A DNA stretch of 19,434 nt from a virus (taxonomy: Duplodnaviria; Heunggongvirae; Uroviricota; Caudoviricetes). Below are positions 3,484 through 9,136 of this stretch, piece after piece. Made by a program: the position numbers and the translations under genes. The notes beneath the pieces are model-generated. The model had not been told where the DNA came from, did not search any database, and saw nothing but the letters and a program-made list of their open reading frames with translations. The stretch covers positions 1 through 19,434 of IMG/VR virus record IMGVR_UViG_2778261454_000002; one strand, given 5' to 3'. Within the stretch, counting starts at the first letter, position 1, and the number at the start of each line of letters is the position of its first letter.

Positions 3484-3734
3484 TGGGCTGCTCCTTGTCT
3501 GGCTCTGCTCAAGAGCTGGTTAAACATCATGGTTAGGCTGTTACTGCAACCAAACGGCATATCGTTAATGCGGTATGTTGGAATACCCTTGCGAACACCA
3601 GACTTCACGATCCGACCGGTGCCATAGAGCTGAGATAATGCTCCGGCGACCGCTGGGGTCTTTTTGTTCATACCTTTGGCGATTTCACCGCTGGTGGTAT
3701 TCGGATGAGCCTGGAGATATTCAAATACGGTCAT
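3480..3734 (-). CDS. Small winged-helix/HTH-like protein
   Basis: 84 aa; the SGEIAKGMNKKTPAVAGALSQLYGTGRI segment looks HTH-like; ATGA overlap with the upstream small gene. Confidence 0.5.
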   Translation of the reverse strand: MTVFEYLQAHPNTTSGEIAKGMNKKTPAVAGALSQLYGTGRIVKSGVRKGIPTYRINDMPFGCSNSLTMMFNQLLSRARQGAAQ

Positions 3735-4542: not shown

Positions 4543-5460
4543 TTATCGCTTGGCTTCGCCGCCGAGAGAGGTTGTTAATCCGTTAATGAGAGAGATAAGC
4601 TCGCCGGTCATCAGAACAAAGTCAGCGTCGAACCTCTGAGCCGCATCCTCACGGTCGATATCGTCGTTTTGTTCTGTAATCTCATTAGAGAACTTAAGGC
4701 GTTTGATGCTGCCGTCATCGCAAAGAACGAACTGAATGCGCTGTTGCCAGTCGATAGACAGCTTTGTAACTACTTTGCCAGCTTCCAGATGCACATGAAT
4801 TTCGTCACTGACCAGAGTCTGTTTTTTAAAGCGTCCAATACCGCCATCTTCAAGAATAGCTTTCAGTTCGGCTTCATCACCCAGGCCAAAGCCAGCAGGC
4901 GCACTACCGGAACGAACCCATTCGGTCATAGTTAGTTCGATCGGCGTTTCCATAGTCAGCGGTACCACCGGGAGAGAACCGAGAGTTTTACGAAGCAGGG
5001 CCAGTGAGTCTTCGGCACGTTTAGCGCTGGCTGCATCAACCATGATCAGACCGTCGGTGACGTTGATCCACAAACTAACAGTCGAGTTTTTGGAGAACGC
5101 CCGAGGAAGCAGGGAGTGCAACACTTCATCACGCAGCGAATCTTTCTCAGTTTTTTTGAGGCGACGCCCCTGATCGGATTCCAGACGCGACACACGCTTG
5201 CGCAGTTCTTCAGCAATGACAGGAGATGGCAGTATTTTTTCTTCCCGGCGAATAACCAACAACACTTGATTATTGACAGTGTGATGCAAGCGATCTGACA
5301 GCTGACCAAGTGGTGATACCCAACCGGTTTTTGCCATATCCTGGCTACCGCATGGAGTGAAGCGAAATAGTTCAAGCTGCTGTTCCAGCTCTTCCTGGTT
5401 GATGGTGAAATCGCGACTAATGCGATACACCAACATATTTTTGAAAAACGGATTGTTCAT
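4543..5460 (-). CDS. rdgC: Recombination-associated protein RdgC homolog
   Basis: 305 aa, alignable along its full length to E. coli RdgC as recalled ([85 protein letters not shown]). GAGGAA RBS upstream. Confidence 0.85.
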
Positions 5461-5772: not shown

Positions 5773-5970
5773 ATGGGCGCTTTTGATAACCAGGAAATTA
5801 CGTTACCCGCATGCCCTAAGTGCGGCACTAAGACGAAGAAGAAAATCGCTTGGCTCAAGTCGAACAAAAGTTTCACTTGTCGATGTGGAGCTACTATCAA
5901 TGTCAACAGCAGCCAGCTTACTTCCGAAATCAGGAAGGTTGAGGACAAGCTGAAGAAGCTCTTTAAATAG
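5773..5970 (+). CDS. Small zinc-ribbon protein (CPKCG...CRCG), 65 aa
   Basis: Track ORF 5767..5970; ATG at 5773 sits about 7 nt after AGAGGGA; followed by a hairpin with T-run. Overlaps antisense with the 3' half of the minus ORF 5803..6168. Confidence 0.45.
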   Translation: MGAFDNQEITLPACPKCGTKTKKKIAWLKSNKSFTCRCGATINVNSSQLTSEIRKVEDKLKKLFK

Positions 5971-6168
5971 TTTTTTATCGACTGATATTATTTCGTTATC
6001 AGAGGTTGGTTTTTCAGCCTCTGATTTTTTAGTCAGGATCATTTTTTCTACACATGTGACTACGCATTCCGAACAGATGGCAGGTTCGTCCTTACCACCT
6101 TTTGCGACGATCTTTATCGCTCCCAGTTCGGTTGCTCCGCAAAATGAGCATGTGAATAAATGATTCAT
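5803..6168 (-). CDS. ClpX-type C4 zinc-finger small protein; first gene of the leftward operon; 3' extent uncertain
   Basis: ATG at 6168 with GGTGGTAGAGG RBS (track start 6186 is TTG). N-terminal CSFCG...ICSECV resembles the ClpX N-terminal zinc finger. The downstream two-thirds is antisense to the plus ORF and may not be coding. Confidence 0.4.
   Translation of the reverse strand: MNHLFTCSFCGATELGAIKIVAKGGKDEPAICSECVVTCVEKMILTKKSEAEKPTSDNEIISVDKKLFKELLQLVLNLPDFGSKLAAVDIDSSSTSTSETFVRLEPSDFLLRLSAALRACG
5999..6030 (+). terminator. Rho-independent terminator-like hairpin
   Basis: TCAGAGG ... CCTCTGA stem with a 12-nt loop followed by TTTTTT, 29 nt after the stop at 5968-5970. Confidence 0.5.
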
Positions 6169-6279
6169 GTAAACCTCTACCACCAACCTAAGTTTTCTGT
6201 CAGCGAATCATCCGGTTATTCATATGCCACCGGCGGCTACTTCGTGGGCGTCCTGCCTGTTCGTTACTGCAACATCTTT

Positions 6280-6325
6280 AAGTTGTAATCTAGTTGTTGT
6301 TTTGGTTGTTGTCAACAACTTTATG
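6280..6325 (-). promoter_or_regulatory. Candidate pL promoter with OL-like operator palindrome
   Basis: On the minus strand, TTGACA (plus 6310-6315), a 17-nt spacer and TAGATT (plus 6287-6292). The -35 lies inside GTTGTTG-N-CAACAAC (about 6305-6319). Placement right of cI matches lambda pL/OL logic. Confidence 0.4.
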
Positions 6326-6378
6326 TGGTTTTGACGGATGTGAAATGAGGGCAAGGGTTATCAAAAAAGGAGGTTGTA

Positions 6379-6482
6379 TGGACGATGCGCTTTTAATTAC
6401 ACAAGGGACACTTTCCTTCCGTGATTGGAAACTCTCAAATCACGGGAGGAAGATTGAAAAGGCGGGTAATAATGGTAACTAA
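6379..6482 (+). CDS. Possible small peptide (34 aa); low confidence
   Basis: ATG 5 nt after a near-perfect AAGGAGG; contains an 8-bp-stem hairpin (CCGTGATT...AATCACGG, about 6419-6446). Part of the longer TTG-start track ORF 6294..6482. Confidence 0.2.
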
Positions 6483-6509
6483 ATTTCTGAAGGAAGGTTT
6501 TTTGATGCA

Positions 6510-7196
6510 TTACCAAGTGCGCGATGACCAGAATACTCTACCTATAACGTGAATTCTTGAACGCCTATCTTCGAAGGTGAGTATTTCATCTGGATACTCA
6601 TCTTTATTGAAACTTCTTAGAATCAGACCACCGTCAGGTAAATTGATCAATATTTTAACTCTAAGTAATACGCCATCACGTATGGCATAAAGATCCCCAT
6701 CACGAATAGGAACCGTTTGGGAAACATCAACAGCAACAAAATCTCCATTGTTAAGTACAGGTAGTAAACTATTGCCCCAAATTTTTACGATCTTTGCATT
6801 GGAGACACATACACCAGCTTTTCTTAAATCAATCCTTCTTAGCGGGAACCAGTCTACAGTTGATTCAACTATTTCAGCCAAACATCCATTACCCGCTGAT
6901 AACTCGACATCTAGGACTGGAATGTTTGCAAAAATGTCAGGATCTAATGCTGTACTTTCAGCCTCCTTTACAACAAGGTCTGGGAAAGACGCGTTATCCT
7001 CAATGCCCAATTGCAACCACTTTTGAGAAACCCCTAACACTTTAGCAATCTCTTTAATTTTCCGAGGCTGTTGAGTTTCTCCATTCTCGATTTTCGCTAC
7101 GGATTGTTGTGAAAGCCCAATTTTTTCAGCTAGTTGCGCCTGACTCATTCCTGCTTTTTCTCTTTCGCTTTTTAGTCTTTCTGCCAATGTTTTCAC
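6510..7196 (-). CDS. cI: CI-type prophage repressor (N-terminal XRE HTH, C-terminal S24 LexA-like autopeptidase domain)
   Basis: 228 aa; HTH MSQAQLAEKIGLSQQSVAKIENG; C-terminal domain with Ser in IWGNSLLP and Lys in LLRVK. Divergent from cro; GTG start. Confidence 0.9.
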   Translation of the reverse strand: MKTLAERLKSEREKAGMSQAQLAEKIGLSQQSVAKIENGETQQPRKIKEIAKVLGVSQKWLQLGIEDNASFPDLVVKEAESTALDPDIFANIPVLDVELSAGNGCLAEIVESTVDWFPLRRIDLRKAGVCVSNAKIVKIWGNSLLPVLNNGDFVAVDVSQTVPIRDGDLYAIRDGVLLRVKILINLPDGGLILRSFNKDEYPDEILTFEDRRSRIHVIGRVFWSSRTW

Positions 7197-7199
7197 AAC

Positions 7200-7333
7200 A
7201 TATCCCCCTCGTTTTTATTGAGGTTACAACTTTATGTTTTAGCTTTCCAACATCTAAAAGTTGTGATAAAAGTTGTTGTAGTTGTATAATCGAAGTTATC
7301 AACAACTTTACTACTTACAGATAGGAGAAAGCT
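7200..7333. promoter_or_regulatory. OR-like operator cluster with PR (and presumably PRM)
   Basis: Repeated ACAACTTTA / TAAAAGTTGT and GTTGTTG / CAACAAC half-sites at about 7226-7238, 7254-7279 and 7299-7312. Plus-strand TATAAT at about 7285-7290 with TTGTGA about 18 nt upstream; AGGAGA RBS before cro ATG 7334. Confidence 0.6.
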
Positions 7334-7582
7334 ATGACACCTGAGCAATTAGCCTTATCAGAGGCAATCGCTCTGGCTGGTGGTCAATCAGAATTGGCTC
7401 GGAAGCTCACAGCCAGCAGTGGTCGTTTAGTAAAGCAACAACATGTCTGGAACTGGTTGAACAGAGAAAAGCGTCCCCCTGCAAAACTCTCGATATTTAT
7501 TGAAATGACCACTGGCGTATCAAAAGAAAAATTACGTCCAGATATTTTTCAAAAGATTAAAGACTTATCAGATGGAAAGTAA
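7334..7582 (+). CDS. cro: Cro-like HTH regulator (YdaS-like family)
   Basis: 82 aa; first gene rightward of OR, divergent from cI; HTH-like GGQSELARKL; YdaS-family resemblance is from memory. Confidence 0.7.
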   Translation: MTPEQLALSEAIALAGGQSELARKLTASSGRLVKQQHVWNWLNREKRPPAKLSIFIEMTTGVSKEKLRPDIFQKIKDLSDGK

Positions 7583-8156
7583 CCACAGTTTTAAGGAGAT
7601 AGCCGTGGGTAAGCATCACTGGAAAGTAGAAAAACAGCCTGAGTGGTACGTGAAAGCTGTCAGAAAAACTATCGCGGCGTTGCCGGGTGGTTACGCTGAA
7701 GCTGCTGACTGGCTGGATGTAACAGAGAACGCATTATTTAACCGCCTTCGTGCCGATGGCGATCAGATTTTCCCGCTGGGATGGGCAATGGTTTTGCAAC
7801 GTGCTGGTGGAACTCACTTCATTGCTGACGCTGTGGCGCAGTCTGCAAATGGCGTCTTTGTGTCTCTTCCTGACGTCGAGGATGTGGACAACGCCGATAT
7901 TAACAAGCGCCTGCTGGAAGTCATTGAACAGATTGGCAGTTATTCCAGACAGATTCGTTCGGCAATCGAAGACGGTGTGGTGGAACCGCATGAGAAGACA
8001 GCAATTAACGACGAGCTGTATCTCTCAATTTCGAAGCTGCAGGAGCATGCAGCACTGGTCTACAAAATCTTTTGCATTTCAGAAAGTAATGACGCCCGCG
8101 AGTGTGCAGCTCCGGGCGCCGTGGCGTGTCGTGACTGTGGAGAAACTAACGCATGA
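7572..8156 (+). CDS. CII/YdaT-like phage regulatory protein
   Basis: 194 aa directly after cro with an 11-nt overlap; position and size fit CII-type regulators (CP76/YdaT-like) of lambdoid prophages. Family assignment is from memory and uncertain. Confidence 0.55.
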
Positions 8157-8500: not shown

Positions 8501-9136
8501 ATGAGCACTAAATTAACCGGCTATGTATGGGATGGTTGCGCAGCGTCAGGCATGAAATTATCCAGCGTGGCAATTATGGCCCGCCTGGCTGATTTCAGTA
8601 ATGACGAAGGTGTGTGCTGGCCATCAATTGAAACCATTGCCCGCCAGATTGGCGCGGGGATGAGTACCGTCAGAACGGCTATCGCACGGCTGGAAGCAGA
8701 AGGCTGGTTAACGCGTAAGGCGCGTCGCCAGGGTATCTGCATCATCGTCTGCCTGTCATGGGCTGTTAATCATTACCGTGATAACGCCATCGCCTATAAA
8801 GAACAGCGCGATAAAGCCACGTCTATCATCGCTGATATGCAGAAGCGTCAACGTGATGTAGCAGAACTTGACGCCAGATACACAAAGGAGCTTGCTGATG
8901 CTAATGCGACTATCGAAAGTCTCCGTGATGATGTTTCTGCTGGGCGTAAGCGCCTGCAAGTCGCCGCCACCTGTGCAAAGTCAACGACCGGAGCCAGCAG
9001 CATGGGCGATGGAGAAAGCCCAGGACTTACAGCAGATGCTGAACTCAATTATTACCGTCTCCGAAGTGGAATCGACAAGATAACCGCGCAGGTTAACTAC
9101 CTGCAGGAATACATCAGGACGCAATGCCTGAAATAA
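8501..9136 (+). CDS. Chimeric ORF: replication-initiator-like HTH N-terminal domain (about 78 aa) fused in frame to the C-terminal part of i-spanin Rz
   Basis: N-terminal [34 protein letters not shown] is an HTH typical of phage O-like initiators. From [19 protein letters not shown]... onward it is colinear with lambda Rz ([20 protein letters not shown]...[19 protein letters not shown]...LRDDVAAGRRRL...). Junction near nt 8735. Confidence 0.7.
8904..9083 (+). CDS. rz1: o-spanin Rz1 lipoprotein, embedded in the +1 frame of Rz
   Basis: Inside track ORF 8868..9083; [18 protein letters not shown] has a lipobox (LLGVSAC) followed by a Pro-rich segment ([16 protein letters not shown]), as in lambda Rz1. 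Start codon chosen by me. Confidence 0.7.

What the first reader, a model, noticed from the sequence alone, without database searches (positions are those of the whole stretch)
6280..7333. Immunity-region operator family GTTGTTG/CAACAAC shared by OL- and OR-like sites
A 7+1+7 palindrome GTTGTTG-N-CAACAAC overlaps the predicted pL -35 hexamer at about 6305-6319. Related half-sites (ACAACTTTA, TAAAAGTTGT, CAACAACTTT) recur at least four times in the cI-cro intergenic region around a TATAAT at about 7285-7290. This fits a CI repressor controlling pL and PR/PRM through a shared half-site, and gives a testable specificity for this immunity type.
Basis: seen in the sequence. Interest (0 to 1): 0.4.

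Follow-up and report, generated by a model that had tools for sequence, protein, structure and literature searches.

The report
Operators of a 434-like prophage repressor

Summary
GTTGTTG-T-CAACAAC lies at 6305-6319 over a TTGACA-17-TAGATT promoter on the minus strand. AAGTTGT/ACAACTT occurs 8 times in 19.4 kb, 6 of them in the two control regions.

I compared about 120 relatives with cI 58-100% identical, from Escherichia, Pseudomonas, Providencia, Proteus and Serratia. The conserved unit is a 15-bp dyad, ACAAC-N5(AT-rich)-GTTGT. There are exactly four copies with at most one mismatch in the window (expected 0.5):
- 6272-6286 and 6315-6329 at pL
- 7226-7240 and 7250-7264 between cI and cro

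Four equally conserved lone half-sites accompany them.

The cI N-terminal domain is most similar to the 434 repressor (E 1e-14) and keeps its Gln-Gln-Ser recognition helix, which fits an ACAA-type half-site. The spacing is 15 bp, not 434's 14 bp.

The geometry copies lambda OR2/OR3:
- One dyad sits on the PR -35 and abuts the PRM -35.
- The other dyad fills the PRM spacer.
- There is no full OR1-like dyad.

Verdict: a real operator family and a new immunity specificity of a known kind. Interest is modest. No binding was tested.

The parts
6272..6286 (.). OL-A: 15-bp dyad (minus strand ACAACTTAAAGATGT), covering about -6 to +9 of pL
   Evidence: One mismatch to ACAAC-N5-GTTGT. Conserved in all clades (pairwise identity 0.92). 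The strong half switches sides between clades (ACAACTTAAAGRTGT versus ACACCTTAAAGTTGT), which supports dyad symmetry.
6287..6292 (-). pL -10 hexamer, TAGATT (TAAATT in most relatives)
   Evidence: pairwise identity 0.97.
6293..6297 (.). OL lone half-site (minus strand ACAAC), abutting the pL -10 on its upstream side
   Evidence: Invariant in 11 clades. No dyad partner at N5 (sequence).
6305..6319 (.). Its 6305-6311 arm lies in the pL spacer and is clade-specific.
   Evidence: Present in the window. The pL spacer has pairwise identity 0.31 and 0 of 12 invariant columns. The palindrome is absent from relatives at 82% cI identity and below.
6310..6315 (-). pL -35 hexamer, TTGACA
   Evidence: Invariant.
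6315..6329 (.). OL-B: 15-bp dyad (minus strand ACCACATAAAGTTGT), abutting the pL -35 from upstream
   Evidence: One mismatch. Pairwise identity 0.99. It is the perfect dyad ACAACATAAAGTTGT in the Providencia and Proteus relatives.
6513..7196 (-). cI repressor, 228 aa (stop codon at 6510-6512): 434-like HTH domain plus LexA-like S24 self-cleavage domain
   Evidence: HTH_3 1.2e-15 and Peptidase_S24 9.5e-14. Best solved-structure match is the 434 repressor N-terminal domain, 1.2e-14. Recognition helix SQQSVAKIENG at residue 29; Ala101-Gly102, Ser143, Lys181.
7221..7226 (-). Candidate PRM -10, TAACCT (TAATCT, TAGTCT or TAAAAT in relatives)
   Evidence: Alignment positions. Lies 18 nt downstream of the conserved TTGGAA. 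Too weak for the consensus scan, so this is an inference.
7226..7240 (.). OR-B: 15-bp dyad (minus strand AAAACATAAAGTTGT), filling the PRM spacer as lambda OR3 does
   Evidence: One mismatch. Pairwise identity 0.99, 14 of 15 columns invariant.
7245..7250 (-). Candidate PRM -35, TTGGAA
   Evidence: Invariant in the 11 E. coli-type clades; TTGGAT in Proteus.
7250..7264 (.). OR-A: 15-bp dyad (minus strand ACAACTTTTAGATGT). It overlaps the PR -35 by 4 bp and the PRM -35 by 1 bp, as lambda OR2 does.
   Evidence: One mismatch. Pairwise identity 0.97. Present in all clades.
7261..7290 (+). PR: TTGTGA (7261-7266), 18-nt spacer, TATAAT (7285-7290)
   Evidence: 10 of 12 consensus positions matched. Conserved in the E. 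coli-type relatives.
7268..7276 (.). OR lone half-site AAAAGTTGT in the PR spacer, a direct repeat 12 bp from the strong half of OR-A
   Evidence: 9 of 9 columns invariant. No dyad partner (sequence).
7281..7285 (.). OR lone half-site GTTGT, abutting the PR -10
   Evidence: 5 of 5 columns invariant.
7302..7310 (.). OR lone half-site ACAACTTTA, at about +6 to +14 of the PR transcript region
   Evidence: 7 of 8 columns invariant amid flanks at 0.51 identity.
7334..7582 (+). cro, 82 aa, YdaS-family HTH; candidate recognition helix VKQQHVWNWLNR
   Evidence: PF15943 3.6e-14. phrog_35, transcriptional repressor. Sequence.

Best explanation
The ACAAC/GTTGT words are the operator half-sites of this prophage's lambda-type immunity switch.

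The binding unit is a 15-bp dyad: 5'-ACAAC, five A/T-rich bases, GTTGT-3'. It is read by a dimer of the 434-like N-terminal domain of cI, and probably also by the YdaS-type Cro, whose candidate recognition helix also begins with Gln-Gln.

Each control region has two dyads. Each dyad has one consensus half (usually ACAACTTW) and one half with a single mismatch. Conserved lone half-sites lie around the promoter cores.

At OR:
- A repressor on 7250-7264 covers the PR -35. It sits 7 bp upstream of the PRM -35 edge, the position of lambda OR2, so it should repress PR and probably stimulate the weak PRM (TTGGAA-18-TAACCT).
- The lone half-sites at 7268-7276, 7281-7285 and 7302-7310 extend coverage over the PR spacer, -10 and start site.
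- Binding to 7226-7240, which fills the PRM spacer as lambda OR3 does, shuts off cI synthesis. This would happen at high cI, or first by Cro.

At OL:
- 6272-6286 covers the pL start site.
- 6293-6297 abuts the -10.
- 6315-6329 abuts the -35.

Induction would follow RecA-stimulated self-cleavage at Ala101-Gly102.

Shown: the sites, their statistics, their conservation, their linkage to this cI family, and the protein homologies. Inferred: who binds, the order of filling, activation of PRM, and the role of the lone half-sites.
For: - Four dyads with at most 1 mismatch in 19.4 kb, all in the two control regions; 0.52 expected and 0 of 200 shuffles reach 4.
- In 84 related loci such dyads fall only at the four homologous positions, apart from one unrelated recurrent element that is absent from the window.
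- Phylogenetic footprint across 11 clades: dyads and half-sites have 0.92-1.00 pairwise identity, other intergenic columns 0.51-0.59, and the pL spacer 0.31 (alignments).
- Support for dyad symmetry: a perfect ACAACATAAAGTTGT in Providencia and Proteus, and OL-A switching its strong half between clades.
- The OL cluster follows cI whether it lies about 190 bp or about 930 bp beyond the cI stop.
- DNA-side search: 40 of 42 OL-type contexts have this cI beside them, 2 are truncated, and 0 of 78 other contexts have it.
- The cI N-terminal domain best matches the 434 repressor (1.2e-14) and conserves QQS, ENG and PR. In 434 the outer 5+5 bp are contacted and ACAA is conserved (PMC1636474).
- Gln-Gln and the Lys at 434 position 33 are invariant in all clades.
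- Contrast cases: the Stx1-phage cI (41% identical) has helix SQPAIQK and no ACAAC or GTTGT in its spacer; read by eye, that spacer has TAAC..GTTA-type sites. The Hafnia phage cI has helix KQQSIAS and, also read by eye, ACAG-N6-CTGT sites.
- Promoters.
- S24 domain and catalytic residues.
- AT-rich operator centres favour 434 and P22 repressor binding (PMC3317979).
Against: - No binding or expression data exist for this immunity type. Nothing was found in the held literature, and no sequenced phage carries this cI (best 44% identity).
- There is no full OR1-like dyad over the PR -10.
- Four invariant half-sites have no partner, and a dimer placed on any of them would overlap the neighbouring dyad. 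The simple 'dimer per dyad' picture is therefore incomplete.
- The 15-bp spacing differs from 434's 14 bp, so the geometry of the domain dimer cannot simply be copied from 434.
- All four dyads are imperfect in the E. coli clades.
- PRM is a weak consensus match that the promoter scan did not find.
- cI and cro are always inherited together with the sites, so comparison cannot tell which protein binds which site.
Confidence: 0.7

Rival explanations
1. One reading: the outward-facing 7+1+7 palindrome GTTGTTG-N-CAACAAC (6305-6319) is the OL operator, and single related half-sites serve at OR.
For: It is a perfect 15-bp palindrome over the pL -35. Providencia relatives carry an outward GTTGT-N5-ACAAC next to cro. 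The window also has a perfect 10-nt inverted repeat, AAAGTTGTTG...CAACAACTTT, flanking the PR -10 (pair I10).
Against: The spacer arm is not conserved among relatives with the same recognition helix: 0.31 identity and 0 of 12 invariant columns. In most clades only GTTGT plus TTGACA remains. There is only one such site in the window, against 0.53 expected by chance. An outward arrangement cannot be read by the same dimer that reads the four inward dyads.
Confidence: 0.07
2. The working sites are not simple dyads. The repressor and/or the YdaS-type Cro binds arrays of half-sites in both direct and inverted order, on three successive major grooves (ACAAC-N6/7-ACAAC-N5-GTTGT). The lone half-sites would then be primary contacts rather than auxiliaries.
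For: The lone half-sites are as invariant as the dyads. The same one-and-a-half-site layout occurs at both OR (7250-7276) and OL (6272-6297). In the CP-933P switch, which also has a YdaS-type Cro, footprints cover four palindromes, two of which lack one half, plus direct repeats (PMC8630535). The P2 C repressor binds direct repeats (PMC2995052, title and abstract).
Against: The spacing between a lone half-site and its dyad varies from N4 to N7 among clades, which argues against a rigid three-subunit geometry. The cI N-terminal domain is a 434-type domain, and that type binds two-fold symmetric sites (PMC1636474).
Confidence: 0.18
3. The motif is bound by another factor (the CII-like activator at 7572-8153, or a host protein), or it is a compositional or promoter feature rather than a repressor site.
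For: A CP76/CII-like gene follows cro. From my own memory, phage 186 CII uses half-sites two helical turns apart, and the 7281-7285 and 7302-7306 half-sites are 21 bp apart centre to centre.
Against: The same word sits at pL, far from any establishment promoter. It matches what a Gln-Gln recognition helix is expected to read. It is absent from the spacer of a homologous repressor with a different helix. Its orientation relative to the -10 is opposite at pL and PR, so it is not a promoter element. The near-match to an IHF site at 7297-7309 is not conserved.
Confidence: 0.04

Closest known systems
Bacteriophage 434 repressor/Cro and its operators
   Same: The cI N-terminal domain is the closest solved relative (E 1.2e-14, 30 of 65 aligned residues identical by my count). 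The recognition helix starts Gln-Gln-Ser. The half-site begins ACAA. The outer 5+5 bp are conserved and the centre is A/T-rich and variable, as for the contacted and non-contacted parts of 434 operators (PMC1636474, PMC3317979). Cro also has Gln-Gln.
   Different: The site is 15 bp (ACAA-N7-TTGT), not 14 bp. The fifth base (C) is invariant. 434 Gln33 is Lys here, and Lys40/Arg41 are Gln-Gln. There are two full dyads per region instead of three. Cro belongs to a different family (YdaS, PF15943). No sequenced phage carries this cI.
Lambda OR/OL with PR, PRM and pL
   Same: Divergent cI and cro. An S24 self-cleaving repressor. A second operator cluster at pL. One dyad overlaps the PR -35 and lies 7 bp upstream of the PRM -35 edge, as OR2 does. 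Another dyad fills the PRM spacer, as OR3 does (comparison with the lambda sequence is from my own knowledge).
   Different: There is no OR1-type dyad on the PR -10; lone half-sites stand there instead. cI has a normal ribosome-binding site rather than a leaderless mRNA. The operators are 15 bp rather than 17 bp. No N gene was recognised. The rex position holds only a deleted remnant of a BRCT-domain gene.
CP-933P cryptic prophage switch PaaR2/YdaS/YdaT (PMC8630535)
   Same: It has a YdaS-family Cro and a CII analogue to the right of the repressor. The intergenic region holds full palindromes together with sites that have lost one half, and direct repeats. Cro represses PRM first.
   Different: PaaR2 is not an S24 repressor. 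The motif there is GTTTAGTAA in 18-bp palindromes. That system was footprinted, and this one was not.
Hafnia phage vB_HpaM_Meifeng cI (41% identical)
   Same: The helix starts KQQS. By my own reading of the cro-cI spacer printed, it holds three ACAG-N6-CTGT dyads. This is a naturally occurring relative with an ACA-type half-site.
   Different: Its sites are 14 bp with ACAG rather than ACAAC, and the residue at 434 position 33 is Ser rather than Lys. It therefore has a different specificity. It is also unstudied.

Membership tests
Lambdoid CI/Cro immunity switch | Divergent repressor and cro genes with back-to-back promoters in a short spacer | tested here: met
   cI at 6513-7196 (-) and cro at 7334-7582 (+), with a 137-bp spacer. 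PR is TTGTGA-18-TATAAT. The candidate PRM is conserved.
Lambdoid CI/Cro immunity switch | Repressor has an N-terminal HTH plus a LexA-like S24 self-cleavage domain with Ala-Gly and a Ser/Lys pair | tested here: met
   HTH_3 and Peptidase_S24. Ala101-Gly102, Ser143 and Lys181 located by motif. Cleavage itself was not tested.
Lambdoid CI/Cro immunity switch | The same operator motif at OR and at a distant OL overlapping pL | tested here: met
Lambdoid CI/Cro immunity switch | Three tandem full dyad operators in each region | tested here: not met
   Only two dyads with at most 1 mismatch per region, in the window and in 84 relatives. The remaining sites are lone half-sites.
Lambdoid CI/Cro immunity switch | Repressor and Cro physically bind the operators, with opposite order of preference | not testable with these tools
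   Needs EMSA or footprinting.
Lambdoid CI/Cro immunity switch | Positive autoregulation from the site next to the PRM -35 | tested here: inconclusive
   The geometry fits: the dyad centre (7257) is 7 bp upstream of the -35 edge (7250), and PRM is weak. This is position only.
434-type operator recognition | DNA-binding domain homologous to 434 repressor, with Gln-Gln at the start of helix 3 | tested here: met
   (E 1.2e-14, aligned QQS). Invariant in all clades.
434-type operator recognition | ACAA at the four outer positions of each half-site | tested here: met
   The strong halves are ACAAC. The weak halves differ at one position.
434-type operator recognition | 14-bp operator (ACAA-N6-TTGT) | tested here: not met
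   All four sites, and the perfect Providencia site, are ACAA-N7-TTGT, which is 15 bp. The 434 operator is 14 bp (PMC1636474).
434-type operator recognition | Same immunity (cross-repression with imm434) | not testable with these tools
   Unlikely, given the different spacing and Gln33 replaced by Lys. This needs a plating or reporter test.
YdaS-type Cro switches (CP-933P, Rac) | Cro belongs to PF15943 | tested here: met
   3.6e-14.
YdaS-type Cro switches (CP-933P, Rac) | Partner repressor of the PaaR2/RacR type (no S24 domain) | tested here: not met
   The repressor here carries Peptidase_S24.

The most novel reading that the evidence does not exclude
This switch runs with only two full operators per control region, each deliberately asymmetric (one consensus half and one mismatched half), plus lone half-sites one helical turn away. 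Repression of the PR and pL cores would then depend on a third DNA contact per complex (a 'one-and-a-half-site' operator) rather than on an OR1-type dyad. In intact relatives, the pL-distal dyad (6315-6329) would double as the control site of a divergent promoter (TTGAnn-17-AAGGAT) that drives a BRCT-domain gene in the rex position.
Probability: 0.2. Interest if true: 0.45.

Novelty: new member of a known kind. Interest (0 to 1): 0.25.

Why it matters
- It gives a concrete, testable operator consensus (ACAAC-N5-GTTGT) and a site map for an immunity type carried by about 71 of 5,426 complete E. coli genomes and by prophages of Providencia, Proteus, Serratia and Pseudomonas. No sequenced phage or paper in the held collections describes this immunity type.
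- It offers a natural variant of the 434 recognition domain that reads the same ACAA core at one extra base pair of spacing and with a fixed fifth base. That is useful for work on repressor specificity and for designing orthogonal switches.
- It allows prediction of which prophages are homo-immune.
- It does not change how lambdoid switches are understood.

Tried and rejected
1. Reading the sites as CAAC-N8-GTTG (16 bp), which the window alone suggests at 6270-6285 and 7248-7263. Rejected: in relatives the outer GTTG of the pL copy is lost (GTTAA, GTTAC), while G(A/G/T)TGT at N5 is kept. At OR the extra TTGG is explained by the PRM -35.
2. Looking for an OR1-like dyad over the PR -10 at N4, N5 or N6 spacing. 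None was found; the best partner matches 1-2 of 5 positions.
3. Treating GTTG before TATAAT as an extended -10. The register is wrong.
4. Host-factor sites. The near-IHF site TATCAACAACTTT (7297-7309) is not conserved. The DnaA-box resemblance in TTATCACAA is 6 of 9.
5. Literature search by sequence words. It returned 1,222 papers of primer noise. Searching by the RefSeq protein accessions returned nothing.
6. Rfam on the whole window and, permissively, on 6100-7400. No hits.
7. A recurrent fifth dyad-like word, ACAACTTTATGCTGT, in relatives. It lies inside one conserved GC-rich element followed by a terminator-like stem, further down the pL operon, and is absent from the window. I treated it as a single inherited coincidence.
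8. The 16-mer search in viral contigs. It also pulled in 78 unrelated hits, mostly one family with the same flanking sequence, none of them next to a cI of this family.
Full report
**1. What is in the window**

The region is the immunity module of an E. coli prophage on an SfV/SfII-like backbone.
- cI lies at 6513-7196 on the minus strand. It is 228 aa, with HTH_3 1.2e-15 and Peptidase_S24 9.5e-14.
- cro lies at 7334-7582 on the plus strand. It is 82 aa, YdaS family, 3.6e-14.
- A CII-like gene (PF06892, phrog_101) lies at 7572-8153.

The 1.5-kb cassette is 99% or more identical over at least 80% of its length in 71 of 5,426 complete E. coli genomes. SfV and SfII share only its two flanks. No phage record in the INPHARED collection has this cI; the best protein identity is 44%.

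**2.

GTTGTTG-T-CAACAAC is at 6305-6319 and overlaps the -35 of TTGACA-17-TAGATT on the minus strand. PR is TTGTGA-18-TATAAT at 7261-7290. The quoted half-sites are at the quoted places.
- AAGTTGT/ACAACTT: 8 hits against 2.5 expected, 6 of them inside about 125 bp of the two control regions.
- GTTGTTG: 10 hits against 3.1 expected, 5 of them in those regions.

**3. Relatives show what is conserved**

Searching with cI gave 4 full-length genome loci and 80 viral-contig loci. Their cI proteins are 100, 93, 82, 79, 78, 71, 70, 69, 61, 60 and 58% identical. The named genome hosts are Pseudomonas lundensis, Providencia, Proteus and Serratia.

Every one of them has two clusters of the motif. One lies between cI and cro. 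The other lies beyond the end of cI, at about +190 bp in the window's clade and about +930 bp in all others.

I aligned 11 E. coli-type clades and scored mean pairwise identity per feature:

| Feature | Pairwise identity |
|---|---|
| Motif positions | 0.92-1.00 |
| Remaining intergenic columns | 0.51-0.59 |
| pL spacer outside the half-site (12 nt) | 0.31, no invariant column |

Going the other way, I searched viral contigs with a 16-mer from the pL site (ACATAAAGTTGTTGAC).
- 42 hits were in an OL-type context. Of these, 40 had a cI of this family 1-1.7 kb away, and the other two were cut off on that side.
- None of the 78 hits in other contexts had such a cI.

**4. The unit is a 15-bp dyad**

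Across clades the conserved blocks resolve into ACAAC, five A/T-rich bases, GTTGT. With at most one mismatch the window has exactly four copies. The expected number is 0.52, and no shuffle out of 200 reaches four.

| Name | Coordinates | Plus-strand sequence |
|---|---|---|
| OL-A | 6272-6286 | ACATCTTTAAGTTGT |
| OL-B | 6315-6329 | ACAACTTTATGTGGT |
| OR-B | 7226-7240 | ACAACTTTATGTTTT |
| OR-A | 7250-7264 | ACATCTAAAAGTTGT |

In 84 related loci such dyads occur only at the four homologous positions, apart from one unrelated recurrent element that is not in the window.

Two observations argue that the dyad, and not merely the half-site, is under selection.
- OL-B is the perfect palindrome ACAACATAAAGTTGT in the Providencia and Proteus relatives.
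- OL-A has its perfect half on one side in some clades (ACAACTTAAAGRTGT) and on the other side in others (ACACCTTAAAGTTGT).

An alternative 16-bp reading, CAAC-N8-GTTG, which the window alone allows, fails in the relatives.

**5. Lone half-sites**

Four further copies of the half-site are as invariant as the dyads but have no partner at any sensible spacing:
- AAAAGTTGT at 7268-7276, in the PR spacer, 12 bp from the strong half of OR-A.
- GTTGT at 7281-7285, abutting the PR -10.
- ACAACTTTA at 7302-7310, at about +6 to +14 of PR.
- GTTGT at 6293-6297, abutting the pL -10, 11 bp from the strong half of OL-A.

A dimer centred on any of them would overlap the neighbouring dyad. Their distance to the dyad varies from N4 to N7 among clades. 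I cannot say how they are used. This is the main gap in the model and the basis of the second rival explanation.

**6. Who binds**

The cI N-terminal domain's best match among solved structures is the 434 repressor (E 1.2e-14), followed by 434 Cro. The alignment keeps Gln-Gln-Ser at the start of the recognition helix, Glu-Asn-Gly after it, and Pro-Arg.

In 434 the dimer contacts the outer 5+5 bp. ACAA is conserved, and the central bases are read indirectly (PMC1636474). A/T tracts at the centre raise affinity (PMC3317979). From my own knowledge of the 434 complexes, Gln28 and Gln29 read the first three base pairs and Gln33 reads the fourth and fifth.

Here Gln-Gln is invariant in all clades, and 434 position 33 is an invariant Lys. 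This goes with an invariant ACAAC. The link between Lys and the fixed fifth base is my inference.

Cro's candidate helix, VKQQHVWNWLNR, also starts Gln-Gln, in both the E. coli and the Providencia versions.

Two relatives at about 41% identity serve as contrasts.
- The Stx1-phage cI has helix SQPAIQK. Its spacer has no ACAAC or GTTGT; read by eye, it shows TAAC..GTTA-type sites.
- The Hafnia phage cI has helix KQQSIAS. Read by eye, its spacer holds three ACAG-N6-CTGT sites.

The motif therefore tracks the helix, not the protein family as a whole. Because cI, cro and the sites are inherited together, comparison cannot assign individual sites to cI or to Cro.

**7. Geometry and likely working**

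- PRM is best placed at TTGGAA (7250..7245), an 18-nt spacer and TAACCT (7226..7221) on the minus strand. The -35 is invariant. The -10 varies as TAACCT, TAATCT, TAGTCT or TAAAAT. It is a weak promoter of the kind that needs help.
- OR-A overlaps the PR -35 by 4 bp and the PRM -35 by 1 bp. Its centre is 7 bp upstream of the PRM -35 edge, the same as lambda OR2 by my own reading of the lambda sequence.
- OR-B overlaps the PRM -10 by 1 bp and fills the spacer, as lambda OR3 does.
- At pL, OL-A covers about -6 to +9, the lone half-site abuts the -10, and OL-B abuts the -35 from upstream.

The simplest reading has four parts:
- cI on OR-A and OL-A, helped by the half-sites, shuts PR and pL.
- cI on OR-A stimulates PRM.
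- OR-B gives negative autoregulation and is the natural first target of Cro.
- Ala101-Gly102, Ser143 and Lys181 provide RecA-dependent induction.

None of these steps has been measured.

**8. Comparison and novelty**

This is a lambda-type switch with a 434-type recognition domain. It fails two membership features that I could test:
- three full dyads per region (it has two plus half-sites);
- the 14-bp 434 spacing (it has 15 bp).

A mixed architecture of full palindromes, half-conserved sites and direct repeats has been footprinted in the CP-933P switch, which also uses a YdaS-type Cro (PMC8630535). It is therefore not unprecedented.

I found no description of this immunity type. I rate it a new member of a known kind, of modest interest.

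**9. Limits**

Everything rests on sequence statistics, conservation and homology. The relatives are not independent samples. The clades share a common module, so the counts reflect a dozen or so lineages, not 120.

Noticed in passing
window 6203-6262, minus strand (just downstream of the pL start): A conserved leader element of about 60 nt, CGAACAGGCAGGACGCCCACGAAGTAGCCGCC...GGATGATTCG. It has an outer stem and an inner 5-bp hairpin, and both covary; the inner pairs appear as CG/GC/UA, GC/CG/AU and UA/AU/GC/CG. It has no Rfam match even at E<=1. It occurs in 51 phage records with different immunity types, including ST64B, SfV, SfII, mEp460, ZF40, Yersinia YeP1, an Aeromonas phage and a T5-like Providencia phage. 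In the four records inspected it is intergenic, unannotated as a feature of its own, and upstream of the next gene in the same orientation; in three of the four (ZF40, ST64B and the Aeromonas phage) it also lies just downstream of a repressor gene. It looks like an undescribed cis-acting RNA of early-left leaders and may deserve its own study.
   Followed up: partly
window 6378-6482 (+); relatives L023 3170-4090 (-) and L003 3167-4054 (-): All relatives outside the window's clade carry a gene of about 300 aa between cI and OL, convergent with cI. It has a BRCT domain (Pfam 1.3e-6), belongs to phrog_3989 (function unknown) and weakly matches the PADLOC defence candidate PDC-S48. The window keeps only a 34-aa in-frame remnant, MDDAL...SFRDWKLSNHGRKIEKAGNNGN, which joins the first residues to the last 25 or so. 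In E. coli CX21 the remnant's ribosome-binding site is also mutated. A 17-nt inverted repeat at 6413-6451 lies inside the remnant.
   Followed up: partly
window 6331-6359 (+): A candidate promoter divergent from pL, for the BRCT-domain gene. Relatives have TTGAnn, a 17-nt spacer and AAGGAT, starting 1 nt beyond dyad OL-B. Both hexamers are better conserved (0.85 and 0.89) than their surroundings (0.59). In the window the -10 has decayed to AGGGTT. If real, repressor bound at OL-B could control it.
   Followed up: partly
window about 6266 and about 7593: These are the mosaic boundaries of the exchangeable immunity cassette. SfV and SfII align only with about 6200-6265 (the leader element) and 7593-7700 (the start of the CII-like ymfL gene).
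   Followed up: no
window 8501-9136 (+): This ORF combines an N-terminal HTH_36 domain (residues 23-70) with a C-terminal Rz lysis-protein domain (residues 100-209, 4e-35). In the near-identical prophage of strain CX21, about 7 kb of replication, methylase, antiterminator and lysis genes separate the two parts. The window's prophage therefore seems to carry a large deletion that fuses them, and is probably defective.
   Followed up: no
window 5806-6168 (-): The first gene of the pL operon encodes a 121-aa protein with a ClpX-type zinc-finger-like CxxC...CxxC N-terminus (Pfam 8.4e-6, just below the family cut-off). It belongs to phrog_20296, function unknown. No N-like antiterminator gene was recognised.
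   Followed up: no
relatives only, e.g. L023 about 5080-5215 and L016 about 3565-3700: A conserved GC-rich element containing ACAACTTTATGCTGT, followed by a GGTACCAG...CTGGTACC stem and a T-run, recurs at variable distance down the pL operon in about 28 relatives. It is absent from the window. It looks like a structured RNA plus terminator.
   Followed up: no
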